From a virus: 64,000 nucleotides of DNA. The notes beneath the pieces are model-generated. The model searched no databases. It saw only the letters and a program-made list of their open reading frames with translations, and was not told the DNA's origin. Position 1 is the stretch's first letter. Each line of letters opens with the position of its first letter. Location: positions 128,001 through 192,000 of IMG/VR virus record IMGVR_UViG_3300045988_107814, one strand, 5' to 3'. Position numbers and translations under genes: made by a program. Positions 1,895-23,976 of the stretch are shown one piece after another.

Positions 1895-4800
1895 TTATAG
1901 CAATCCTTTAATAGCTTTCATAGTATACTTTAATGTATTAGAAGTTATCTTAATAGAACTGTCAGAAAATGGTGTAGAATTATAGTAATCTGAGAAGTTA
2001 AATCCTTTTTCAGCTTTCATTACAAAATCTAAATTAAGTTTAAATACATTTAAGCAAACAGCTCTAGTATCTATTAAATCTTTATATTGTTCATTCTTTA
2101 AACGTTTCTTAAGTTCCTTTTCAATACAATCATTAATATACCATAATTTAGCAAGTTCATATTTAATACCTTCTATATTAGATTGATTTCTGTATGTTTC
2201 TAATAACTGTACTGAATCATCAATTTCATCCCCATATGATAATGATCCTGTACGAGCTTTATAAATAATAAGATTACCATCTTTATCAAACTCTATTGGA
2301 AATTGTTTTACTTCATTAAGAATAGAAGCTGATTCTTTTATTGATTTTGGAAATCTTACAACGCCAAAATATTTTTTACATTTTTTATTCGTGCATCTAT
2401 AAATTGGTTCACCCTCAAAAAATATGCCAACATCGGATCCACATTCTGTACATTTTTTAGGAACGTTTTGTCCTTTATCATTAACAAAAGATGCTTCATT
2501 TTGTACTTCTTTTTTCTTATTACTATGATCTTTAATCTTATGGAACCAGTGCCATTTATAATCATATTTGATAATGGTTTTCTTTTTATTATTAGCAAAC
2601 TTTCTTACATGTTCACCATTAACTTTATCTACTACAATACTACCTACATATTTTAATTGTACTGGTTCAAGAATCCACATTTCATTTGTAATATTTGCAT
2701 CGAAGATATCACCATCTTTGATAATTTGTTTATTAGATTTACATTTATAAGAACTGATAGGTTTTTCTGGTGTATATACATATAAAGTTTTACCAGCTAA
2801 CTTTAATCTACCAGTATCATTAATTATAGCATTTAAACATCCTTCTATAGAATTTGAGAAGCATACTCTAGGAGTTTTATATTCTTCAAAACCAAATCCA
2901 GAAGAGTCTTTTGCTAATTTTAGTTTCTCTAATGCTTGAATAAAGTTCTTGTCTTTCTTTAATTCATTAGTAATCCATGTAGGGACTCTTGGTTTTAAAG
3001 GTCCATGTTCATCTAAATCGGAGTCAAAAGAAATATGATAGAATCTCTTTTTAGAATACGGATTAACGCCATTCTTTATATCATTAAGATTCATACCAGT
3101 AATAGACTCTTCGATACTTTCTATACCAGTCTTTAATAAAGAATTAATCTTTTTCTTTGTCTTTTTACCATCGTACTTTGTAGCAACATCATTAAATACT
3201 TCAATGATCTTATTTGGAATTGCTTTAGCATGATCATATAATTGACCAGGATCAGGAATTTCAATATCTCCAACAAGATTGATATTTCCAGATTTCAATA
3301 CTGTATCTACAAAAGTAGAGCATACTTGATGGTATTCGTTTTTACTTACCTTATGATCAATCTTTAAAATCTTATTAAAGAAGATTCTTAGATCGAATGT
3401 AGTTTTATTATTTTCAAAATCTTTAACTTTATCTTTTAATTGTTTCACTATTTTAGTAGGAGCAAAGAAAGCCATTACAGAAATTATATTATCTTTGAAA
3501 GAGTCTAAATTTTCTTTAATAAATCCTGCTTTTTCTCTTATATTAAAACTATACACTTCTTTTAATTCTGGATCAAAAGAAATACTAGCATGAGAATAAG
3601 AGCTTCCAGTTACTAGTTTAATACCTTGAGAAACAATAGGTGTGTGTCCTTGTGTAAAGATTAATAATACTGGTTTATGTGTACTTTTATTTGCAGCTTC
3701 ACTTAACAATTCGTCATCATCACTTTCTGGAATATTATCTAGATTTATAAATATGTCTTTTGGAATTGTCTTGTCTAATATATCAGATACTCGTTTAGAT
3801 GCTTTTAGTCTATTCTTTCTATTAAATGGTATCTCTGGGTTCCATCCTAGATTTAGGATGGATTGTTTTCTTGCAAGGATCTTGTCTTCATTCCCAGACG
3901 ATTTAATATCTTCAAAATCAGAATATAATAAATCTAATGTATCTATCCAATCATTTCTATAATCTTCAAAAATATGATCCATGCTCATATCTTTATACGA
4001 TGCAAACCATGTAGGAATTTTTATATTTGTAATTAATCCATCATTATCTGCATCTTTACAATAAAAATTATGGTTACCATGAACCCCCATATCTATCATT
4101 TCAGAAGGAGTAAAGTATGGACAGTCGTTAAATCTTCTATGTTGTTTAGATTTAGTTGATTCTGCTTCATTTACAACTTTCATATTATTGTACACTTGAG
4201 AAACGAATTCTCCTAAAGTTTGTACAACAGAAGAAGTTTCTAATCCATCTTCTACTGGTGAAACAGATTTCTTTGTTTTAACAGTCATGGCATCCAATAA
4301 TTTCTTTTTAATATAATTATATCTATCTATGTTATTCATACCATATATAGCCATAGATTCATCATCAGATTGAACTTTATGATCATGAGATTGACCATTG
4401 TATTTGATAAATTGTTGTTCTAGGTCTTTTAATTTTTCTTCGTTTGTAATACCTTTAATACTACTGATAATAAATATATTTGAATCTATTTGAAATTGAT
4501 CAGCTATAGTATTCTTTTTAATATCATAGACAAGTTTACAGAATAAATCATCGTCATATAAATGAATTTTATTACAATCAGTTTCTGTATTAACAGGAAT
4601 CTCTGTTTCCTCATGTACTGTATCAGTTATATCATTCTCATTATCTGGAATGTCTTCATTGTCAGTATCTAATCCAATAAGATTATCAAATTCATCATCA
4701 TTAAAATTATCCTCATCTTCTTCGGGATCATAATAAACTGACTCATTATCATCTTCTTCAGAGTCTCCATATTTAGAATCTATATCAGACATAAGCTTAT

Positions 4801-11526: not shown

Positions 11527-14500
11527 TTAAAATTTATGTCTGATAGTATAGTCTTGTTTTATTCCCATTATATCTTTAACTTGTCTATCTAGTTCTACTA
11601 ATCCTTTACCAGCTAATGTATACTGTAATGGAGCACAGCACATACGTTTATCAAACGATACCATAGATGCAATAGCATCGATAGGTTCATTAGGTCTATA
11701 GGATGATGTAGGTTCGTATCCTTTTTGAACAACTTCTTTAGCTACACCTTTTTGAGCACCTAGAAAAATTAGTTTATCACCAACAGAGAAGTCATCTTTA
11801 TAAGATACATATATTTCAATTAATACGCCATCTTCTATATTTTTTAGTTTTCCTTCTTGAGGAAGTTTCTGACAAGTATATTGTTTTGCTAGATTCTCAT
11901 CATATTTAGCAATTTGTTTTGCCTTAGCATTACGTTTTCTTTCATATTCAGATACTATCTTCTTTAATGACGGAGACATTTCATCTAGTTCACAAGTTCT
12001 ATAGATATTAATATCTTCTATAACACCTGTATTATTAGACTTAATTGGAATACGTCCAAGAGATGTTACTGTGTCTTCATCATCAACTAAGTTCTTTAAC
12101 AATACGTTTACATCATTATCTTCGAATGTATTCTGAATAATTAATAATGGATCTCCTTCTTGCACTTGATCTCCAACTTTAATCATATTGAATATATTTG
12201 TATTTTTAGATAATGTAACTGGTACTTCCATTATTACATTAGATGATAATGCGTCAGAAATATAACTAGATACAATACAGGAGTCTTCGAATCCTTTATC
12301 AGAAGTAATAATTGCTACTTTTGCTAATGTACCTTGATTATAAGTAGCACTATTATCATAACCACAATTAACACTATATGACATAGGATCATAAGCAATT
12401 AACTGACCTTTCTTTACTTTAGTACCGAGACCTTTATCTACTTCTAGTTTAACTGATGTATAAAAACCACCATCAGAGTTTTTATATACTTTATTATTAA
12501 GATCAACAAAATCAATACTACCATCATTATATTGAATAACAACATGATCATCATCACGTTCAACAACAGTACCATTGTCTTTAGCGTTAAAAGAGAATAC
12601 ATCTGGTGTGAACATTGTAAGAGCGTCATCCATACCATTTGTGATAAGTAATGGATCACCACCTGCAACTCTCATATCATGCTTACTTCTCTGTACATAT
12701 GACATTGCTAAACGGAATGGGTCATCATGAGTAGTACACATAGGAGTAAGATTTTCTGCTGTGGTCATTGTATTTACATCATTCATCTTAGATTTTTCAT
12801 TTGACTTATCAGAGATATATCCACGTTTACCGTTTATATTTGCATTAGTAGTCATAATACGGTCAACACCAACTGTAGCAGCGAAACCTGTAGACATTCC
12901 TAGAATATTTGTCATAGATTCGTCATAGGTACGCTTTTCTAGTGAATAAGATCTATCACTGTTAAGACCAGATAGTCCTTTAAATGAAGCCATACTATTA
13001 CTATTAGCATAGTTTAATTCATTAATTGTAGATAAGTCTGAACATGTATTATCCATCATTATTGCATCAATAATAGCAGATTGTTTTACTGTCATTGTAG
13101 CTTTACCGGTTTTCTTTAACTTTGTTCTATAATCAGCATAAGCCTTAGATAAAACTTTGTAAGCATAACCGGCTACAATTTCATTAGTTCTAAATCTATT
13201 ACCAGAAATATCTACATGCTTATTATATTTAGTATCTGATAATAAATTAGATGCATAGATTAATGCTTCACAAAAATCTTGTGGAAGATCATACATATTA
13301 CAAACACGTTGAGAGATAGGATCAAACATAAGATCGTAGAAGTTATCAAGACCATCTGCTTTAATCCTGCCACCAAAGTTATCTAACATTTCTGTCCACA
13401 TTGTCTTAGAGTTTACATCCTTAATAGAATAATCTATTGTATCGCATTCCTTTAATCCATTCATGAACAAAGAAGAATTATAATCAATTCTATATAATAA
13501 GAATGCATCCTTAAATTTAATAAGATCATGTGTAGTATAATCTATCTTGCTAGGACGTTTATCAGTAATTTCATAAGAAATAGCAGCTTTGTTAAGTGTT
13601 TTAATAAGGCCTTCACAATATGCACAAATAACAATTACTGGCATCTTGGTATTAAGAATAGATGCTTGAGAATATGCATATTTAACAGATGGCTTTGCTT
13701 CGTTATAATAAGTAGCGAATTCTTCATCTTTACACAATTCAGCAGCGATAATATTAGAGCATAAAATAGCTCCATCGCTATAGATAATCTTCTTTTCACT
13801 GGCATCATATCCAATAGGCAATCCTTTAGACAAGTCAATAATGTCTTGATATTTTTCTCTGATATCATCTTGATCAAAATAGAATGTAACGTTTTTATAT
13901 TTAATATAAGAATATGCTTTACCAATATCCATATAATCCATTGGGATTTCATATTTAAGAGCAGTTATAGCATTATTACCAGACATATTTGTAATAGATT
14001 TACCAGTATATTTAGACAATGCTTTTATAATTTTACCAGACACTACATTTGATTTACCAACAGCACTACCAAATGTACGGAAGAAAATCTTGTTATAATT
14101 TGTAGTAATTTGTGCTGTATCAAATTCTGTTTTTATAATAGGAAGATTTATTAACTGAGCATTAATTGTCTTATCATTACCTCTTAGTCTCATAAATCTA
14201 TTATTCTTGAACAAAGGAATATCGAATTTCAATTGGAATCTAGTACCGCCGATATCTTCACATTGTACAGTCCAAGTTTCTTTCAAATCTTCAGATGTAG
14301 TTGTATTTTCAACATCAACATTTCTGATACCAACTGGAACAGTTCTTGTAGAAAAGAAATCTAAGATAGCCATTATATCTTCGTCTACATTATATTCTTT
14401 ATTAAAATTAATGTATTGAAGATTATCCCATTGATCATTATTAATACTATTAATATTAGCAGAAGATACTGGTAATGGATCTTCACCTGTATCTTGGGAA

Positions 14501-16734
14501 TCTTCTAGCATTTGACTAATAGATTCACCTTTAACTTTTTTCTTTTTAAGATCATCACTAAGAGAATTTATTCTTGCTTTACGAGTTGCAGAAGCTTTAA
14601 TCTCTGTAGATTCTTCATCAGAAATATCTTGAATCAGATTAGCAATATAATCGTTATCAAGTTTTTCTAATGCTTCGTCTGTAGAAGTAGAATTTTGTGC
14701 AGCATCTTTAATACTCTCAACAAGTTCTTCTTTCTTTTTCTCTGTTACTTCCTTAGCTACTTCTTTCTCAGATTTTTCTACATTATTTTTATCTTTTACA
14801 GTTACTTTCTTTTGAGATACCTTTTCTATCTTCTCATCACTATTAGAAGAAGATGTAATTTCTTTTGATACTTTACCTAATGCTCCATATAGATTAACTT
14901 TTTTAGAATTCTCGATCTTATCTACAATATCAGTAACAATTGCATTAGGAGTATCTTTTACCATATCTTCATCATTAGGTACAATCTTATTAAAGATATT
15001 ATTTATATTAGATATAAATCTTTGTAGTTCGGATTTCTTAAATTCAGAAAAGTTAATCTTAAAATAAGAGTTTTTACCAAAGAAGAAAACGTTGTTATTT
15101 CCAAATATCTTCTTAAGTTCATCAAAATCATTACGCTTAACTAAACGTGTTATGAGACTTACAGGATTTAAAGATTTGGTATAATCTATTACATTTACAT
15201 CATCACTGTAGTAGTCTAAAACAGGAATAAAAATTGATTTAGTCTTATATTCTCTATCTATAGTAGAATTGTTCAGAAAACGTCTCAATGTTTCAGAATA
15301 TAACTTAATACCCTGTTCGCCCATCTTTTTATTATTCTCTATAAAGAGTTTATTGTAATAAGATACATCTACAAAAAGATTCATCTTATTATATGCTTCT
15401 ATATTTACTTTGGTAAATTGAATTGCAGGGCATTGAGCTTTGACAACTTTATATACGTCAAATAATTCTTTTTGATTTCTGATTCGTTCATTATACATAT
15501 ATTGACGTAGTCTATTATCAATGGCATCTTCAGTAAATATTTCATCACCAAAGAATACAGCATTATCGCCATATCTAAATCCTTCTGAATTAATTTCAGA
15601 TTCAGGAATTTGTGGAGATTTTTCTTTTTCTATATTAACCTTTATTAGATCAATATATACAACTGGATATTTATCTTTATTCTTACTGGTTTTACCAATA
15701 AACTTTAATGCCGTTGCTCTATCAATAAAATTACCATCTTGAATAATAGAAGTCTTGATATTTTGGATCAATAGTTTATCTCTATTTAAAGAATATACTG
15801 GAACAATTCTATTACCCTTAGATGCAATTTGTTTATTGATATCTCTATTATACATAACATCTCTAAATGTATAGATTAAATACATAGAGATTTCTTCTTT
15901 TTCATCATCGTCATCAAAATATGAATCTTCTAGATAAATTCCGAATTCATTACCATATATAGGATTCTTATGAGAAACACCAAAACCTGCAAGATTATCA
16001 TTTGTATCATAACATAGGGCTAGGAAATTAGCATTGGTTAACATTTCACATACATTTTTATAATCTCTTATATCTTTAATAAGTTTTTGACATTCTTTTA
16101 TATACTTATTAATATCCTTACCAGTATAGTATTCGAATCTATAATCTGTTAGAATTTTTAATGGAATACCACCAGAAGTTTTAACAGTAACTTCTTTCAA
16201 GCTTCTATAATATTTAGAGAATCTATTCTCTTCACCAACTTCAATATCAGTAATATTAAAGTGCTTTAGCTTTTTAATGATATTCTTAGCTAATGTTTTC
16301 TCATATTCTTTTGGACAATGATTAAACATTCTTATCGCTGCTCTAACATGTTCTTCATCATTGATAGGGTATGATCTAGTTTGAGGAATGCCAAATTCAC
16401 TATCAGATAACTCTTTTCTATCTTTAGTAGATAATTTAGATTCATTAATAAAAGAACTAATAAAATCGTCCTTATACTCAACAAATTCTTTTATCTGATT
16501 AGTATCTGCTTTGATAATAGCATCAATAGATTTATCAATATAATATGATCTAAACCATTTACGATTGTTTATAATTATATCACTATTAATCATTCTAATA
16601 GAAGATGATATATCAGATGTTAGTAGATAGATTAAACTTCCATGTTTATCATCATCTGGATTTAAAGGTATAAAAAGTCTGTTGTTCTTATTATACAGCT
16701 TTAAATTTTTCATATCTTTAATGTGTATAGACAT
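11527..16734 (-). CDS. multisubunit RNA polymerase beta-like protein, unsplit, with a roughly 800-aa N-terminal extension
   Basis: Beta-type motifs in order: FKGLSGLNSDRSYSLEKRTYDESMTNILGMS (compare ALGPGGL..R..RDVH.SHYGR.CP.ETPEG), HDDPFRLAMSYVQRSKH (compare NDANRALMG.NMQRQA), GDKLIFLGAQKGVAKEV (compare GDK..GRHGNKGV.SK), PIDAIASMVSFDKRM (compare PVDIVLNPLGVPSRMN). AAAGGAG RBS. Confidence 0.75.
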   Translation of the reverse strand: MSIHIKDMKNLKLYNKNNRLFIPLNPDDDKHGSLIYLLTSDISSSIRMINSDIIINNRKWFRSYYIDKSIDAIIKADTNQIKEFVEYKDDFISSFINESKLSTKDRKELSDSEFGIPQTRSYPINDEEHVRAAIRMFNHCPKEYEKTLAKNIIKKLKHFNITDIEVGEENRFSKYYRSLKEVTVKTSGGIPLKILTDYRFEYYTGKDINKYIKECQKLIKDIRDYKNVCEMLTNANFLALCYDTNDNLAGFGVSHKNPIYGNEFGIYLEDSYFDDDDEKEEISMYLIYTFRDVMYNRDINKQIASKGNRIVPVYSLNRDKLLIQNIKTSIIQDGNFIDRATALKFIGKTSKNKDKYPVVYIDLIKVNIEKEKSPQIPESEINSEGFRYGDNAVFFGDEIFTEDAIDNRLRQYMYNERIRNQKELFDVYKVVKAQCPAIQFTKVNIEAYNKMNLFVDVSYYNKLFIENNKKMGEQGIKLYSETLRRFLNNSTIDREYKTKSIFIPVLDYYSDDVNVIDYTKSLNPVSLITRLVKRNDFDELKKIFGNNNVFFFGKNSYFKINFSEFKKSELQRFISNINNIFNKIVPNDEDMVKDTPNAIVTDIVDKIENSKKVNLYGALGKVSKEITSSSNSDEKIEKVSQKKVTVKDKNNVEKSEKEVAKEVTEKKKEELVESIKDAAQNSTSTDEALEKLDNDYIANLIQDISDEESTEIKASATRKARINSLSDDLKKKKVKGESISQMLEDSQDTGEDPLPVSSANINSINNDQWDNLQYINFNKEYNVDEDIMAILDFFSTRTVPVGIRNVDVENTTTSEDLKETWTVQCEDIGGTRFQLKFDIPLFKNNRFMRLRGNDKTINAQLINLPIIKTEFDTAQITTNYNKIFFRTFGSAVGKSNVVSGKIIKALSKYTGKSITNMSGNNAITALKYEIPMDYMDIGKAYSYIKYKNVTFYFDQDDIREKYQDIIDLSKGLPIGYDASEKKIIYSDGAILCSNIIAAELCKDEEFATYYNEAKPSVKYAYSQASILNTKMPVIVICAYCEGLIKTLNKAAISYEITDKRPSKIDYTTHDLIKFKDAFLLYRIDYNSSLFMNGLKECDTIDYSIKDVNSKTMWTEMLDNFGGRIKADGLDNFYDLMFDPISQRVCNMYDLPQDFCEALIYASNLLSDTKYNKHVDISGNRFRTNEIVAGYAYKVLSKAYADYRTKLKKTGKATMTVKQSAIIDAIMMDNTCSDLSTINELNYANSNSMASFKGLSGLNSDRSYSLEKRTYDESMTNILGMSTGFAATVGVDRIMTTNANINGKRGYISDKSNEKSKMNDVNTMTTAENLTPMCTTHDDPFRLAMSYVQRSKHDMRVAGGDPLLITNGMDDALTMFTPDVFSFNAKDNGTVVERDDDHVVIQYNDGSIDFVDLNNKVYKNSDGGFYTSVKLEVDKGLGTKVKKGQLIAYDPMSYSVNCGYDNSATYNQGTLAKVAIITSDKGFEDSCIVSSYISDALSSNVIMEVPVTLSKNTNIFNMIKVGDQVQEGDPLLIIQNTFEDNDVNVLLKNLVDDEDTVTSLGRIPIKSNNTGVIEDINIYRTCELDEMSPSLKKIVSEYERKRNAKAKQIAKYDENLAKQYTCQKLPQEGKLKNIEDGVLIEIYVSYKDDFSVGDKLIFLGAQKGVAKEVVQKGYEPTSSYRPNEPIDAIASMVSFDKRMCCAPLQYTLAGKGLVELDRQVKDIMGIKQDYTIRHKF

Positions 16735-20559: not shown

Positions 20560-22875
20560 TTACATCATATTAGATACATAATAATCAGTATCATAAGCTG
20601 TAACAAATCTCACACTATCATTATCTTCAATAATATGTTGGTCATTTGAAAAAATAATATCAGCCGTTTTTGGATCAGATACTAGATTACCTCTTGCACA
20701 AGCATTGAGAACAATAAGATCATACAAGTTAGGTCTGCCAATATCAATAATGGCTTTTACAATTTCAATGACTTTATTAGAACCGTTTTCAATTGTATTA
20801 GTAATATTAGCAAGAATATCATATGTCATATCACACCAGATAAACTCTCTATTAATACAATCGAAGATAACGGGCACACAAGTAGTAGATTCAGCATTAA
20901 CATCGATTCTATCTTGGACAGTAGACGGTTCAAAGATTTCTCCGCTATTCATATCGTTTCTGTACATCCATCCAAAACAACAATTCTTCATAGAACTGAA
21001 ATGTTCTCTAGAGTAGTTATGAACAGAGAGGATTACATATCTACCTCCAGTTTTGATAACCTTGTTAATATCTATATCAATAAACTCTGCTACACCAGCA
21101 CCATCTTCTGGACCACCATTTGTGATATCTCCAGAATGGCAACCGATATCAGACTTTAGATTAGTAAATGAAATATGGGATATAGATTTAAAATCTTCGC
21201 TAAATACACCAGCAGACAAATCTACATCTACATTACCGGTCCACCAAATAAAACTTCTTAGAATATTGGTACTATCGGAAATACTAATATGACTTCCTCT
21301 CGTAATATTCTTGGAAGATGGACTTGCACTTCTAAGATTAAATGGAACAATAAAGTTCTTAAAATCTTTGTCTACATAAACATTTCCTAACTTGTCTAGA
21401 TTAGATTGTTTACTAATAATAGCCTTAGCACAAACACCTGCTACTTCAGTACAAATATCAGACTCCAGATCTTTTAGGTTATAAGGGATAACTTTAATCT
21501 TAGCAGTAGATCCTTTGAGGAAAAATACTCTACTAGTCTTTTCATCACCAGAAGCTCTATGAGAGAAATATTGGAAAAGTTGAATTAGAATCGGAACAGG
21601 AATTTTATCAGCAACCTTTTTAAATTCTCTAATAACAAGCTTGCTATCATTAGGATTTTTACAAGCACTTAGAATTCTGTTTAGATTTCTTGCAAACTCA
21701 CCTGGACGAGTAGAACACATACCACAAATAGAAACAATAAGATTTTGATTATTATGACTAAAATCATCAATAAGTTTAGTCAAATGACCGTTAAACGATC
21801 TTATAGGACACTTACTGTAGTTTCTTAAGATGAAAAACATCTTAACTGCATTTGGGTATTGTTTACTGTATGTGTAAGGATGAACTCTCTCACCAACTCT
21901 TAACCATCTTTCTCTATATCTATACATATCTTCAATCATTCTCGGATTTAAACCACTGATGTCAACCGAAGGATTGTGAGAAGTAAAATAATCAAGTTCT
22001 TCATTCTGAATAGCAATATTATCAAGAACACTCATTAGAATTTTTCTATGTTTTCTTGGAATATTTCTATAATGACAAGGTTTAGATAATGAAGAATCAC
22101 TAGTATTAACATATGCTAGATATCTTAAGATATCTGTAGCTGTTTTATACTTACTTTTAATAAAGTCAATTCCTTTTGTATAGAAAAGTAACAAAGATAA
22201 ACTTGCTAAATTTTCCTTGTTAGGAATTTCAATATCGTTTGGAATGATAAAATCACCAAAGTATTTGAGTACTTTATATGCATCAATATTTCTCTCATAA
22301 TAGGTATTCGAACTAAATGTATTGATATCATTTTTATCAATAACGGATAGCGAAACCTTACTAGACATTAAGTTAGTAGTGATCTCTTTTACCATTTGAA
22401 TTGCTTCATATGGTGTGATGATTGAAATAGTCTTAAGCTTTTCAAGTTTATCTATTTCAATTAACGGAGTTCTTTGTTTTGTTTCATAATACGGAACTAA
22501 TCTTCCATCAGACATATAGTGAATAATTGCATTGATATATAATTCAGCATTACTCATATCCATTACTTGTTGAGGGAAATTAGGATACATACAATTGTAT
22601 TCAACATCGTCCCCTAAGTATTGCTTAATTGAAATAAGCAATACTTTATTATACCAATCTACAATATCTTCTTTATTGAATTTTAGAGCCAAAATATTAA
22701 ATGATTTTTCATCAAGTTTGAATCCATAATCATATAGATTCTTACAGATAGTAGCAACCATTTCTTTGGTCTCTGGATTAAATTCACAAGGATAAGGTAA
22801 TTTGCTATCATTATAAGGGCTGATAACACAGCCCTTTCTTCTGAAGAGTACGATTGATAAACTTGTTTTGTTCAT
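20560..22875 (-). CDS. large protein with C-terminal TerD-like (Ca-binding, tellurite-resistance family) domain
   Basis: VDVDLSAGVFSED...HSGDITNGGPEDGAGVAEFIDIDINKV...YVILSVHNYS matches the TerD pattern DLD.sa..l....H.GDN.tG.GeGDDE.I.vdL.......f.v.iY. About 530 N-terminal aa are unrecognised. Confidence 0.7.
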   Translation of the reverse strand: MNKTSLSIVLFRRKGCVISPYNDSKLPYPCEFNPETKEMVATICKNLYDYGFKLDEKSFNILALKFNKEDIVDWYNKVLLISIKQYLGDDVEYNCMYPNFPQQVMDMSNAELYINAIIHYMSDGRLVPYYETKQRTPLIEIDKLEKLKTISIITPYEAIQMVKEITTNLMSSKVSLSVIDKNDINTFSSNTYYERNIDAYKVLKYFGDFIIPNDIEIPNKENLASLSLLLFYTKGIDFIKSKYKTATDILRYLAYVNTSDSSLSKPCHYRNIPRKHRKILMSVLDNIAIQNEELDYFTSHNPSVDISGLNPRMIEDMYRYRERWLRVGERVHPYTYSKQYPNAVKMFFILRNYSKCPIRSFNGHLTKLIDDFSHNNQNLIVSICGMCSTRPGEFARNLNRILSACKNPNDSKLVIREFKKVADKIPVPILIQLFQYFSHRASGDEKTSRVFFLKGSTAKIKVIPYNLKDLESDICTEVAGVCAKAIISKQSNLDKLGNVYVDKDFKNFIVPFNLRSASPSSKNITRGSHISISDSTNILRSFIWWTGNVDVDLSAGVFSEDFKSISHISFTNLKSDIGCHSGDITNGGPEDGAGVAEFIDIDINKVIKTGGRYVILSVHNYSREHFSSMKNCCFGWMYRNDMNSGEIFEPSTVQDRIDVNAESTTCVPVIFDCINREFIWCDMTYDILANITNTIENGSNKVIEIVKAIIDIGRPNLYDLIVLNACARGNLVSDPKTADIIFSNDQHIIEDNDSVRFVTAYDTDYYVSNMM

Positions 22876-22938
22876 AACTATTAACTCCTTTATATAAAAT
22901 TTATTGGGTGAATAAATTTAAATTTCGGAAACGGAAAT

Positions 22939-22989
22939 CATGATATCTGTATTCAAACCAAAATTATTTTAAAGAAGGAAGATATCACA
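22939..22989. repeat. hairpin module 1 (TGATATCT ... AAGAAGGA-AGATATCA)
   Basis: Arms at 22941-22948 and 22980-22987. AGAAGGAAGATATCA abuts the 3' arm. Confidence 0.6.
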
Positions 22990-23050
22990 TAGCCGGAATT
23001 TAAATTAATAGAGTTCTTTGTATATGTATAATCAATAAATTTTGTCCAAT

Positions 23051-23110
23051 CTTGATATCTATTTTCATAGGCTATAAGCCTAAACACTTAATAAGAAGGA
23101 AGATATCAAA
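23051..23110. repeat. hairpin module 2 (TTGATATCT ... AAGAAGGA-AGATATCAA)
   Basis: Arms at 23052-23060 and 23101-23109. The loop contains an inner TAGGC/GCCTA hairpin. Confidence 0.6.
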
Positions 23111-23156
23111 TATAACATTTAAAATCATATACAAAGAACAAGAGGCTCAGCTCAAT

Positions 23157-23208
23157 CGTATATTCTAAATAAGGCTTTTATTATAAAATGAAGAAGGAAG
23201 AATATACA
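23157..23208. repeat. hairpin module 3 (GTATATTCT ... GAAGAAGGA-AGAATATAC)
   Basis: Arms at 23158-23166 and 23199-23207. The arm sequence differs from modules 1 and 2 but pairing is preserved. Confidence 0.6.
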
Positions 23209-23541
23209 TATAGCTGAATAAGCACTTATATTACAACAAAAAGTTCGCAAGATAACTTTTTGGTGTAAACAAATAGAAGACTGGTGTAGAGATAATAAAT
23301 CGGGGAAGTGAGTTATGTCGTAGTTCTTCTCTACACCAGCCAATTTAGTGAGGAAATTGGAAATTTGATAGAAGAAAAATAAGGGAGTACTCTTAAGGGA
23401 GTTACCCTCTTGAGTACATATAGATGGGATATAAGGACTGAAACTTATATCCCTGAAGTAAAAAATTAGGAGGTCGCTAGTTTCCATGCATGTACAATAA
23501 AAACTAACTATGTCAACGCAAATCGTTGCGTGGAAAGTGTC

Positions 23542-23871
23542 TTATAGTCTATCACAGATATCTTTAATATGCTTATCACAATTATAGATTCTGTTTTCAA
23601 TTTTAGCAATCTGGCCTTCTGTCTCTGATACTAATTCCTTAAGCATCTCAAGCTTTTCTTTATAGAAACGCTTAGAAGCCTTGTAGTATCTACGTTCCAT
23701 CTTAGCTTCGGCAATACGAGTAGCTTCCAGTTCATTACTAATATCACCTTCCTTCAAGGTTGCTACACCTTCGAATACTTCATCTCTACCACAAACTTTC
23801 ATGTTGATAGATGCGATGATTTTTCCATCTTCGACCTTAATAGTCTTATTGTCTTCCAAAAACTTAATCAT
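23542..23871 (-). CDS. hypothetical protein (C-terminal coiled-coil-like)
   Basis: ORF 23542..23880; ATG 23871 is preferred over the TTG at 23880 (AAAGGAA upstream). Confidence 0.6.
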   Translation of the reverse strand: MIKFLEDNKTIKVEDGKIIASINMKVCGRDEVFEGVATLKEGDISNELEATRIAEAKMERRYYKASKRFYKEKLEMLKELVSETEGQIAKIENRIYNCDKHIKDICDRL

Positions 23872-23900
23872 AATAAACAATTCCTTTCTTTAATTTGGAA

Positions 23901-23976
23901 TGGTGAGATATAAGAGGCTTGAACTCTTGACCCTCACATTAAAAGTGTGATGCTCTACCAACTGAGCTAATATCTC
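23901..23976 (-). tRNA. tRNA-Lys (anticodon UUU), CCA encoded
   Basis: rc: GAGATAT-TA-GCTCAGTTGGTAGAGC-A-TCACA-CTTTTAA-TGTGA-GGGTC-AAGAG-TTCAAGC-CTCTT-ATATCTC-ACCA. Confidence 0.9.

What the first reader, a model, noticed from the sequence alone, without database searches (positions are those of the whole stretch)
22876..23541. Gene-free 660-bp helix-dense locus with three paralogous hairpins carrying an invariant AAGAAGGA / UCCUUCUU motif
This is by far the longest non-coding gap in an otherwise tightly packed genome.

Three modules (22939-22989, 23051-23110, 23157-23208) each form an 8-9 bp hairpin. The 3' arm is directly preceded by (A)AGAAGGA, which reads as UCCUUCUU at the 5' side of the loop on the minus strand. 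Module 3 has different arm sequences (GTATATTCT/AGAATATAC versus TGATATCT/AGATATCA) but the same pairing, so the arms covary.

Module 2 sits inside a perfect 14-bp long-range helix (23013-23026 with 23126-23139). Downstream are further 9-12 bp helices: 23237-23245 with 23254-23262, 23281-23292 with 23328-23339, 23340-23346 with 23354-23360, 23387-23417, and 23426-23435 with 23444-23453.

In all three modules the pair flanking the stem is C.A on the plus strand, which becomes G.U on the minus strand. That hints at minus-strand transcription, the same sense as the flanking tRNA-Lys and TerD genes.

Possible readings:
- A large structured phage RNA. Large ornate RNAs such as ROOL and GOLLD are known to sit in phages next to tRNA genes.
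- A multi-loop anti-Shine-Dalgarno regulatory RNA, since CU-rich loops would pair with AAGGA-type RBSs.
- In plus sense, a GGA-motif (CsrA-type) protein sponge.
- A DNA-level origin or partition site with iteron-like repeats.

I cannot tell these apart from sequence alone.
Basis: partly seen in the sequence, partly recalled or inferred. Interest (0 to 1): 0.8.

Follow-up and report, generated by a model that had tools for sequence, protein, structure and literature searches.

The report
New small RNA family beside TerD-domain gene
The gene-free gap holds three tandem copies of a small structured RNA that I found in no RNA database or searchable paper, that sits next to one uncharacterised protein family in hundreds of phages and bacteria, and that is built like the Y RNAs that partner the Ro60 protein.

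Summary

They are not a window-specific oddity or one giant RNA. They are three copies, all on the minus strand, of a widespread two-helix RNA module:
P1(..GG) CUAU P2(8 bp) UUCCUUCUA variable-loop P2' RAUUU (CC..)P1'

A covariance model built from relatives hits the 64-kb window only at these three sites. It gave 232 hits in 70 phage loci, all on the strand of, and flanking, homologues of the adjacent 771-aa gene (helical-repeat N-terminus plus TerD-like domain).

An RNA-first scan of bacterial genomes recovered the same gene next to the RNA in 26 of 29 positive loci; the other three are cut off. Both helices covary strongly. G.U outnumbers A.C 35 to 6, so it acts as RNA in gene sense.

In bacteria, promoters abut P1 and terminators follow it. 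Some loops carry a permuted tRNA-like domain that matches Rfam YrlA below threshold.

Best reading: a Y-RNA-like partner RNA of this protein. It is not a Y RNA: no Ro60 homology and no Ro-binding motif. Binding and function are inferred. Neither Rfam 15 nor the searchable literature describes it.

The parts
22927..23000 (-). Module 1, the canonical copy nearest the gene. In minus sense: P1 includes GG 22993-22994 paired with CC 22933-22934 and is extended by the 17-nt, 88% helix 22912-22928 / 22993-23009. CUAU is at 22989-22992, the P2 5' arm at 22981-22988, UUCCUUCU at 22973-22980, the P2 3' arm at 22940-22947 and GAUUU at 22935-22939.
   Evidence: R1 hit of 60.4 bits, E = 3.5e-13, covering the full model. 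Helix I2. Fold.
23042..23118 (-). Module 2. P2 is 23102-23109 with 23052-23059, and UUCCUUCU is at 23094-23101. The loop carries its own small hairpin (UAGGCUUAUAGCCUA). The GG/CC and CUAU/AUUUCC consensus is degenerate here.
   Evidence: R1 hit of 30.6 bits, E = 1.7e-5. This copy was not in the model's seed. Fold z = -4.7.
23013..23139 (-). Outer closing stem of module 2: the perfect 14-bp helix 23013-23026 with 23126-23139.
   Evidence: Inverted repeat I5, 100% complementary. It is in the minimum-energy fold.
23145..23219 (-). Module 3. P1 is UCAGC/GCUGA (23213-23217 with 23147-23151). P2 is 23200-23207 with 23158-23165. UUCCUUCU is at 23192-23199.
   Evidence: R1 hit of 38.2 bits, E = 1.8e-7. 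Not in the seed. Fold z = -4.0.
23220..23541 (-). Upstream part of the gap ('region A'). It holds hairpins conserved only in the roughly 215-kb phage clade. H1 is 23476-23509 and is followed, in minus sense, by GACCUCCUA (23467-23475). H2 is 23426-23453. H3 is 23387-23417, with an invariant UAACU loop. Its role is unresolved: array leader, promoter region or a further small RNA.
   Evidence: Alignment A3 of eight relatives. H2 and H3 keep their pairing with different stem sequences in L005/L012 and L006. No Rfam match. No sigma-70-like promoter above chance.
20560..22875 (-). The 771-aa partner gene. The product has a helical-repeat N-terminal region (about residues 1-445), a TerD-like beta-sandwich (about 530-690) and a small C-terminal domain.
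   Evidence: PHROG 33734, function unknown. Pfam TerD in 9 of 30 homologues. Foldseek match to TerD structure 2qz7, E = 5e-4. NCBIfam NF041916, E = 1.4e-81, below that model's cut-off. Homologues flank the RNA in phages and bacteria.
23901..23976 (-). tRNA-Lys(UUU), upstream of the array on the same strand. Given as context.
   Evidence: In 8 related loci a tRNA-Lys(UUU) ends 0-3 nt before the first module.
23542..23880 (-). The 112-aa ORF between tRNA-Lys and the gap. It is a syntenic neighbour, not part of the RNA-protein pair.
   Evidence: 42% identical to the neighbour in L005. No similarity to the gene at the same position in L009, which still has the RNA and the big gene.

Best explanation
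The gap encodes, on the minus strand, a tandem array of three small structured RNAs of one conserved family.

**Anatomy.** Each unit is closed by a stem made from its own 5' and 3' ends (P1, usually ending GG/CC). Next comes a conserved asymmetric internal loop (CUAU opposite RAUUU), then an 8-bp stem of free sequence (P2). The large loop always begins UUCCUUCUA and is otherwise variable. It may be empty, hold a small hairpin, or in some relatives hold a permuted tRNA-like domain in the order T arm, closed acceptor stem, D arm.

**Proposed mechanism.** The RNAs are trans-acting partners, most likely direct ligands, of the protein encoded next to them. The invariant internal loop and the UUCCUUCUA strand would form the protein-binding site. 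The variable loop would be the cargo or effector part. This is how Y RNAs work with Ro60/Rsr.

**Proposed biogenesis in phages.** The array is probably co-transcribed with neighbouring tRNA genes and cut into units by the tRNA-processing enzymes.

**Shown.** The RNA family, its structure, its strand, its exclusive genetic linkage to this protein family, and discrete transcription signals in the bacterial versions.

**Inferred.** Physical binding, processing, and a role in RNA or tRNA surveillance or in phage-host conflict.
For: **Structure.**
- In 62 modules from phage loci, P1 was not used to pick the sequences, yet it pairs in 61/62, 56/62 and 45/62 sequences at its three variable inner positions, with four pair types each.
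- Over the whole structure, covariation is 0.845 against 0.19 in shuffles and 0.15-0.21 in slid controls.
- An independent set of 43 bacterial hits is 95.7% paired, with covariation 0.971 against 0.19.

**Strand.**
- With modules anchored by Watson-Crick P1 pairs only, the non-Watson-Crick cells of P2 are G.U 35 against A.C 6.
- U.G is the commonest pair at one P2 position in bacteria, 19 of 43.
- All 232 phage hits and all 43 bacterial hits lie on the strand of the protein gene.

**Linkage.**
- Protein-first: about 70 of 78 IMG/VR loci whose protein is only 27-40% identical carry the exact 8-mer beside the gene.
- The RNA stays with the gene in L009, where all other neighbours differ.
- RNA-first: 29 bacterial loci are model-positive. 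26 have the homologue adjacent on the same strand and 3 are cut by contig or locus ends. None of the 51 model-negative loci has it.

**Discrete RNA.**
- Sigma-70-like promoters end 6-8 nt before P1 in Brevibacillus, Pyrinomonadaceae and Stenotrophomonas.
- Intrinsic terminators, or P1 followed by a U-run, come after the module.
- In Bacteroidota the module lies downstream of the gene.
- In Brevibacillus it stands 1.8 kb away from the gene.

**Y-RNA likeness.**
- Rfam YrlA matches the modules that carry inserts, below threshold and over the full model length: L050 at 43 bits, L074 at 40 bits, L072 at 34 bits.
- The T arm, acceptor hairpin, D arm order was seen in 4 of 96 strictly defined modules.

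**Window.** The model hits only the three modules in 64 kb.
Against: - No experiment shows a transcript or any binding.
- The protein shows no homology to Ro60/TROVE. There is no Pfam TROVE hit, no PDB sequence hit and no Ro60 among the Foldseek matches for the full model or for the N-terminal model. hhalign against the Ro60-like gp165 of Listeria phage P100 gives probability 0.1.
- Known bacterial Y RNAs carry GNCGAAN0-1G (PMC4201824). These modules do not.
- In most bacterial loci the module sits 15-90 nt upstream of the gene, often with a terminator in between. That also fits a cis-acting leader.
- Window modules 2 and 3 depart from the GG..CUAU / AUUUCC consensus.
- P2 helped pick the phage seed set (at least 7 of 8 pairs required), and alignment A6 is fitted to the model. 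The unbiased parts of the structural evidence are therefore P1 and the anchored count.
Confidence: 0.6

Rival explanations
1. A cis-regulatory leader. The modules are operators, or a riboswitch-like sensor, in the 5' UTR of the TerD-domain gene. They would be bound by the gene's own product or by a ligand and would control read-through of a downstream terminator or translation.
For: In the window, module 1 ends about 50 nt before the start codon. In bacteria 1-2 modules lie 15-90 nt upstream of the gene. In Pseudomonas antarctica, Metapseudomonas otitidis and a Symbiobacteriaceae MAG an intrinsic terminator lies between module and gene. That is the layout of an attenuator.
Against: - Modules also lie downstream of the gene: in L009, in many IMG/VR loci, and in Bacteroidota L115, L134 and L150.
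- Arrays reach about 8 copies.
- In Brevibacillus the module has its own promoter and U-run and lies 1.8 kb from the gene.
- Some loops hold tRNA-like domains.
- In some loci the terminator stem is P1 itself, so no alternative fold is evident.
Confidence: 0.2
2. A base-pairing regulatory RNA. The exposed UUCCUUCUA strand, and GACCUCCUA in the upstream part of the gap, would act as seeds. They would pair with purine-rich targets such as ribosome-binding sites (an anti-Shine-Dalgarno action) or with a conserved host RNA.
For: The motif is single-stranded in every predicted fold and is invariant. The window's clade adds further CU-rich single-stranded motifs. The genes in these loci have strong GGAGG-type ribosome-binding sites.
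Against: - An mRNA seed would not be expected to stay identical from 21% to 67% G+C elements in Bacillota, Pseudomonadota, Bacteroidota, Acidobacteriota and Melainabacteria.
- From general knowledge, Bacteroidota make little use of Shine-Dalgarno pairing.
- The tight linkage to a single protein family would be left unexplained.
- I identified no universal complementary target. None was searched for.
Confidence: 0.1
3. A DNA-level element: a replication origin, partition site or iterons with extruded hairpins, bound by the adjacent protein.
For: There are direct repeats roughly 100-120 bp apart and dense inverted repeats, next to genes of the replication and repair module: SbcC-like, polymerase, ligase. 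Folding z-scores are strong on both strands.
Against: - G.U outnumbers A.C 35 to 6, and one pair is most often U.G.
- Orientation relative to the gene is strict in 275 of 275 hits.
- Promoters and terminators frame single units in bacterial chromosomes.
- Units abut tRNA genes and contain tRNA-like domains.
Confidence: 0.03
4. One large structured RNA covering the whole 660-nt gap (ROOL/GOLLD class), or a plus-strand GGA-motif sponge for CsrA.
For: The gap as a whole is unusually well folded. It lies near tRNA genes, as ROOL and GOLLD often do (from general knowledge).
Against: - No Rfam match even at E up to 10.
- Copy number and spacing of the modules vary freely between relatives, and single modules occur alone in bacteria.
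- The upstream part of the gap is conserved only within one phage clade.
- One of the proposed long helices is broken in L003.
- The plus strand is excluded by the strand evidence.
Confidence: 0.04

Closest known systems
Bacterial and phage Y RNAs (YrlA, YrlB, Yrn1) with the Ro60/Rsr protein
   Same: - Small RNAs closed by a stem made from their own 5' and 3' ends, with a conserved protein-side module and a variable large loop.
- Encoded next to, and on the strand of, their protein partner, often in two or more copies (PMC4201824).
- Some copies carry a permuted tRNA-like domain in the order T arm, closed acceptor stem, D arm. Rfam YrlA matches those copies at 30-43 bits.
- Found in phages near tRNA genes.
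- The partner is a helical-repeat protein with a second domain of a family annotated as metal-binding.
   Different: - The partner is not a TROVE/Ro60 protein. It has a TerD-like domain where Ro60 has a vWA domain, and no homology was detectable.
- The Ro-binding motif GNCGAAN0-1G is absent.
- Instead there are GGCUAU / RAUUUCC and the invariant UUCCUUCUA, which Y RNAs lack.
- All YrlA scores are below the gathering score of 69 bits, and short modules give no YrlA match at all.
Type III toxin-antitoxin loci (ToxIN, CptIN, TenpIN). Compared from general knowledge only.
   Same: RNA repeats lie directly upstream of a protein gene, with a terminator between them in several bacterial loci. The RNA is presumed to bind the adjacent protein.
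   Different: - The repeats here are not near-identical tandem units. They have diverged stems with compensatory changes.
- The protein is about 700 aa with no recognised nuclease domain.
- The RNA can lie downstream of the gene.
- No PADLOC match.
NCBIfam NF041916, 'MXAN_6230/SCO0854 family RING domain-containing protein', and stand-alone TerD proteins
   Same: The window protein matches NF041916 at E = 1.4e-81, and the bacterial homologues at 1e-150 and 5e-138. The central beta-sandwich matches TerD structures.
   Different: All scores are below that model's cut-off of 600 bits. No N-terminal RING-like cysteine/histidine pattern appears among the invariant columns of alignment A1. No paper on either locus tag was found. 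No ter operon genes lie nearby.
Ro60-like gp165 of Listeria phage P100 (counterpart of CKA15_055, discussed in PMC12282133 together with abundant unannotated RNAs near tRNA genes)
   Same: A phage protein downstream of a tRNA cluster, proposed to pair with abundant small RNAs.
   Different: It belongs to a different protein family (DUF2828 + DUF7788, vWA-like). hhalign probability against this family is 0.1. The RNA model finds nothing significant in the P100 stretch scanned, record positions 90000-131384, which holds gp165 and the tRNA cluster.

Membership tests
Y RNA (YrlA type, Rfam RF02553) | Encoded within a few kb of, and on the strand of, a Ro60/Rsr (TROVE-domain) gene, and bound by it | tested here: not met
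   The adjacent protein has no TROVE hit in Pfam, no PDB sequence hit, no Ro60 among the Foldseek matches, and hhalign probability 0.1 against a phage Ro60-like protein.
Y RNA (YrlA type, Rfam RF02553) | Ro-binding motif GNCGAAN0-1G in the 5' strand of the closing stem (PMC4201824) | tested here: not met
   The consensus of 62 modules reads GGCUAU at that place.
Y RNA (YrlA type, Rfam RF02553) | tRNA-like domain in the order T arm, acceptor-like stem-loop, D arm | tested here: inconclusive
   Present in a minority of relatives: 4 of 96 strictly defined modules, with YrlA hits of 30-43 bits. Absent from the three window modules.
Y RNA (YrlA type, Rfam RF02553) | Score at or above the Rfam gathering score (69 bits) | tested here: not met
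   Best score is 43.2 bits. There is no hit at all in the window gap.
Y RNA (general architecture) | RNA of 80-130 nt with a long stem from the paired 5' and 3' ends and a large loop | tested here: met
   P1 and P2 covary. Units are 62-156 nt. Promoter and terminator signals frame single units.
Large ornate RNAs (ROOL, GOLLD, HEARO, OLE, raiA) | Match to the Rfam covariance model | tested here: not met
   No such match at gathering score over the window, or at E up to 10 over 22600-23900.
CsrB/RsmZ-type CsrA sponge | Transcribed strand carries repeated GGA motifs in hairpin loops | tested here: not met
   GGA is on the plus strand. Strand evidence puts the RNA on the minus strand. No Rfam CsrB or Rsm hit.
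TerD family (Pfam PF02342), for the partner protein | TerD beta-sandwich domain | tested here: met
   Pfam TerD in 9 of 30 homologues, best E = 3.1e-7. Foldseek 2qz7 at E = 5e-4, TM-score 0.64 over the target. The window protein itself is below Pfam detection.
NCBIfam NF041916 (RING_SCO0854 equivalog), for the partner protein | Whole-protein score of at least 600 bits, including the N-terminal RING domain | tested here: not met
   275 bits for the window protein, 504 and 462 bits for bacterial homologues. The best-scoring stretch covers profile positions of about 314 to 765 only.
Known anti-phage defence systems (PADLOC 2.0) | Match to a PADLOC protein model | tested here: not met
   No hit for the window protein or for two bacterial homologues.

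The most novel reading that the evidence does not exclude
A widespread, unrecognised class of ribonucleoprotein. A helical-repeat/TerD-domain protein (about 2,000 clusters at 50% identity) would be loaded with modular small RNAs through an invariant GGCUAU...UUCCUUCUA...AUUUCC core. Their variable loops, up to whole tRNA-like domains, would act as bait or adaptor for tRNA-handling enzymes or nucleases. Large phages would have expanded the RNA into arrays fused to their tRNA clusters, often directly behind tRNA-Lys(UUU). That would suggest a role in tRNA surveillance, or in countering host defences that cut tRNAs.
Probability: 0.45. Interest if true: 0.85.

Novelty: new variant of a known kind. 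Interest (0 to 1): 0.78.

Why it matters
**What it adds.** Very few bacterial small RNAs are known to work as dedicated partners of one protein; Y RNA with Ro60, 6S RNA, and CsrB with CsrA are examples. This would add a second Y-RNA-like system with a non-homologous protein. It would be an apparent case of convergence on 'stem for the protein, tRNA-like loop for the cargo'.

**A handle on an orphan family.** The protein family is large: 1,986 representative clusters at E up to 1e-30. I found no paper on it.

**Explains other gaps.** It accounts for conspicuous gene-free gaps beside tRNA clusters in many large phages.

**Testable now.** Cultured carriers exist:
- Pseudomonas antarctica CAM17-5
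- Metapseudomonas otitidis DSM 17224
- Paenibacillus amylolyticus NBRC 15957
- Xanthomonas phage Xoo-sp13
- Lactobacillus phage LpeD

**Limit.** My literature search covers only open-access full text and bioRxiv, so an earlier description elsewhere cannot be excluded.

Tried and rejected
**Searches that found nothing.**
- blastn of the gap and megablast of a 7-kb stretch against 50,697 phage records: no match.
- The search for related loci with the single protein against viral contigs: nothing. It worked with the alignment.
- Literature searches for TerD with Y RNA, TerD with TROVE, SCO0854 or MXAN_6230, and the motif itself: nothing relevant.

**Weak Rfam hits in the gap.** mir-8196, ylbH, Ocean-VII and a group II intron piece, at E = 0.5 to 7. 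Treated as chance.

**The 111-aa ORF in the gap.** Rejected as a gene.

**Ro60 homology of the partner protein.**
- Tested by Pfam, PDB sequence search, Foldseek on two models, and hhalign against P100 gp165. All negative.
It was redone with an allowed alignment.

**Other candidates tested and dropped.**
- Listeria phage P100/CKA15 'Y RNA' locus: a different protein family, with no model hit.
- orf112 as a third component: rejected.
- A sigma-70 promoter inside the window gap: no more sites than in shuffles.

**Limits of the genome scan.**
- About 1,100 chance matches are expected for 15 specified bases in 596 Gb (my arithmetic).
- Only the model-positive loci were therefore used.
Full report
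**1. What is in the window**

The window is a stretch of a roughly 30% G+C phage; its close relatives sit on contigs of 213-220 kb. In the direction of transcription (minus strand) the order is:
- tRNA-Lys(UUU), 23901-23976
- a 112-aa ORF, 23542-23880
- the 666-bp gap, 22876-23541
- a 771-aa gene, 20560-22875
- tRNA-Pro, then an SbcC-like gene

The gap is the longest ORF- and tRNA-free stretch of the window; the next is 391 bp. The 111-aa ORF inside it has no family. It is cut to 40 aa in L003 and is missing in L005 and L006.

Both strands fold far better than shuffles (z = -5.4 and -8.0). Rfam has nothing for the gap, even at E up to 10.

**2. The gap travels with the gene**

Homologues of the 771-aa protein are numerous. 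In close relatives and in relatives only 37-40% identical, a gap of 620-810 bp again precedes the gene. This holds in L009, where every other neighbour differs.

Reading those gaps showed the same exact 8-mer, TTCCTTCT, several times per locus and always in gene sense.

In 78 IMG/VR loci found with the protein alignment (27-40% identity), about 70 carry the 8-mer 1-7 times. It lies within a few hundred bases upstream or just downstream of the gene.

**3. The unit**

Lining up the occurrences gives one module, written in RNA sense:

P1 5' strand (4-6 variable nt, then GG) - CUAU - P2 5' strand (8 nt, free sequence) - UUCCUUCUA - variable loop (13 to more than 100 nt, usually ending UA) - P2 3' strand - RAUUU or GCUUU - CC and the P1 3' strand.

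*Covariation in the phage set.* Across 62 phage modules the named structure is 85.7% paired against 52% in shuffles. Covariation is 0.845 against 0.19, and slid controls give 0.15-0.21. P2 pairing helped pick those sequences, so the clean test is P1. Its three variable inner pairs hold in 61, 56 and 45 of 62 sequences, with four pair types each.

*Covariation in an independent set.* The 43 bacterial hits are 95.7% paired with covariation 0.971. That alignment is fitted to the model, which favours the structure.

*Strand.* When modules are anchored only by Watson-Crick P1 pairs, the non-Watson-Crick cells in P2 are G.U 35 against A.C 6. In bacteria one P2 position is most often U.G. This points to an RNA read in gene sense.

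**4. Model search**

A covariance model (R1) hits the 64-kb window three times only, all on the minus strand:
- 22927-23000, 60.4 bits
- 23145-23219, 38.2 bits
- 23042-23118, 30.6 bits

Module 1 is canonical. Modules 2 and 3 keep P2 and the loop motif but have a degenerate inner P1 and internal loop. Module 1's P1 is extended by a 17-nt helix.

In 70 related loci (502 kb) the model gives 232 hits at E up to 0.01. All are on the gene strand, none is inside the gene, and there are 1 to about 8 per locus. Cultured phages are included: Xanthomonas phage Xoo-sp13 and Lactobacillus phage LpeD.

**5. The link holds from the RNA side**

I scanned one genome per bacterial species for GGCTAT-N8-TTCCTTCTA. 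The scan returned a mix of chance and real sites.
- The model is positive in 29 of the 80 loci held.
- tblastn finds the protein homologue (31-54% identity) in 26 loci. All 26 are model-positive, adjacent and on the same strand.
- The other 3 positive loci are cut off by a contig or locus end.
- None of the 51 negative loci has the gene.

Carriers span Bacillota (Paenibacillus, Brevibacillus, Cohnella, Gottfriedia), Pseudomonadota (Pseudomonas antarctica, Metapseudomonas otitidis, Stenotrophomonas), Bacteroidota, Acidobacteriota, Melainabacteria and others.

The other neighbours looked at are not shared between loci: an AraC regulator and an MqsRA-like pair in Paenibacillus, guaBA in Pseudomonas. 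The conserved unit is therefore the RNA plus this one gene.

**6. Signs of a discrete RNA**

In bacterial loci sigma-70-like promoters end 6-8 nt before P1:
- Brevibacillus: TTGCAA-17-TATGAT
- Pyrinomonadaceae: TTTACA-17-TATCTT
- Stenotrophomonas: TTGAAA, then TAAGCT before P1 (spacing not counted)

The module is followed by an intrinsic terminator or by a U-run directly after P1. In Bacteroidota the module lies after the gene's stop codon. In Brevibacillus it is 1.8 kb from the gene. These are readings of the sequence, not transcript data.

In phages the modules mix with tRNA genes on the same strand: 41 of 60 loci have a tRNA within about 2.5 kb of the gene (up to 6 kb in three loci fetched with wider flanks). 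In eight loci a tRNA-Lys(UUU) ends 0-3 nt before the first module. That suggests co-transcription and release by the tRNA-processing enzymes.

**7. Likeness to Y RNAs**

Some loops hold a T arm, a closed acceptor-like stem and a D arm in that permuted order. P2, or an inner stem, stands where the anticodon stem would be.

Rfam's YrlA model matches exactly those modules at 30-43 bits (E down to about 1e-7), three of them over the full model length. This is the topology described for bacterial YrlA RNAs, which lie beside the Ro60/Rsr gene on the same strand (PMC4201824).

The likeness stops there:
- The Ro-binding motif is absent.
- All scores are below the gathering score.
- The short modules, including all three in the window, give no YrlA match.

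**8. The protein**

*Structure prediction.* The AlphaFold model (mean pLDDT 77) shows a helical-repeat N-terminal region, a beta-sandwich and a small C-terminal domain. The sandwich matches TerD structures, and Pfam TerD hits 9 of 30 homologues. The N-terminal region, modelled alone, matches only generic ARM/HEAT-like repeats; the best E is 0.02.

*Ro60 relationship.* No Ro60 relationship is detectable by any route tried.

*Family assignment.* NCBIfam places the family near NF041916, below that model's cut-off. PADLOC has nothing.

*Family size.* The family has 1,986 representative clusters at E up to 1e-30.

**9. The rest of the gap**

23220-23541 holds hairpins conserved only in the roughly 215-kb phage clade:
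- H1, followed by GACCUCCUA.
- H2, which keeps its pairing with a different stem sequence.
- H3, with an invariant UAACU loop and compensatory stems.

I could not assign this region. It may be the leader or promoter region of the array, or another small RNA.

**10. Verdict**

The gap is an array of a conserved small RNA that goes with the neighbouring TerD-domain gene in phages and bacteria.

The best mechanistic reading is a Y-RNA-like ribonucleoprotein. The main rival is a cis-acting leader.

I found no description in Rfam 15 or in the searchable literature.

Confidence that this is a conserved structured RNA functionally tied to the gene is about 0.9. Confidence that it acts in trans as a bound partner of the protein is about 0.6.

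Noticed in passing
L013, L015, L016, L020, L021, L023, L027, L067; window 23901-23976: A tRNA-Lys(UUU) gene ends 0-3 nt before the first RNA module in eight related phage loci. Another clade (L028, L049, L059, L089) has tRNA-Gln(UUG) about 45-140 nt upstream of the first module. In the window, tRNA-Lys(UUU) is 360 nt upstream with a small ORF in between. All tRNAs near the gene are on its strand.
   Followed up: partly
L006-L008, L014, L022, L052 (for example L006 5690-5960): One phage clade carries the loop motif as UUACUUCUA instead of UUCCUUCUA, with different closing pairs. The covariance model misses these copies. This could be a case of RNA-protein co-variation.
   Followed up: partly
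window 23387-23510: Clade-specific conserved elements lie upstream of the modules. One is a hairpin followed by GACCUCCUA, which shares ACCUCCU with the anti-Shine-Dalgarno end of 16S rRNA (as recalled). Another is a hairpin with an invariant UAACU loop whose stems change in a compensatory way between L005, L012 and L006.
   Followed up: partly
L072 2080-2214: One module holds in its loop a tRNA-like sequence in normal, not permuted, order. Rfam tRNA scores it 47 bits and ARAGORN finds no proper anticodon. Processing by RNase P and RNase Z would split that module into two base-paired halves.
   Followed up: no
L102 about 3233-3275; L140 about 336-380; L132, L171, L151: Paenibacillaceae loci share a box, CGTAATACTT(C/T)CGCC(C/A)TGTT, followed about 20 nt later by (T)ATGGGATGAT or ATAGGATGAT. 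The box lies roughly 60-100 nt upstream of the first module. It may be a promoter for an alternative sigma factor or a regulator site.
   Followed up: no
L050, L065, L071, L080; L023, L061: Several related phage contigs carry tRNAs with a CUA anticodon (amber-suppressor type, called 'Pyl' by ARAGORN), and two carry a tmRNA gene. That hints at stop-codon recoding in some of these phages.
   Followed up: no
L009 10804-12320: An IS200/IS605-type pair (a Y1 transposase and a TnpB/Cas12f-like gene) lies a few kb downstream of the RNA-protein locus in one phage contig. A Mom-like gene and an N6/N4 methyltransferase gene are close by.
   Followed up: no
window 11527-16734: A 1,735-aa ORF. Its counterpart in the close relative L001 carries only a weak DUF6582 hit. 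It is conserved in synteny with the locus in L001, L005 and L006. Not examined further.
   Followed up: no
L094 31571-33091 (Listeria phage P100 gp165): The Ro60-like protein discussed for Listeria phage CKA15 (PMC12282133) corresponds to a DUF2828 + DUF7788 (vWA-like) protein downstream of the P100 tRNA cluster. That is a separate candidate phage Y-RNA system, unrelated to the one described here.
   Followed up: partly
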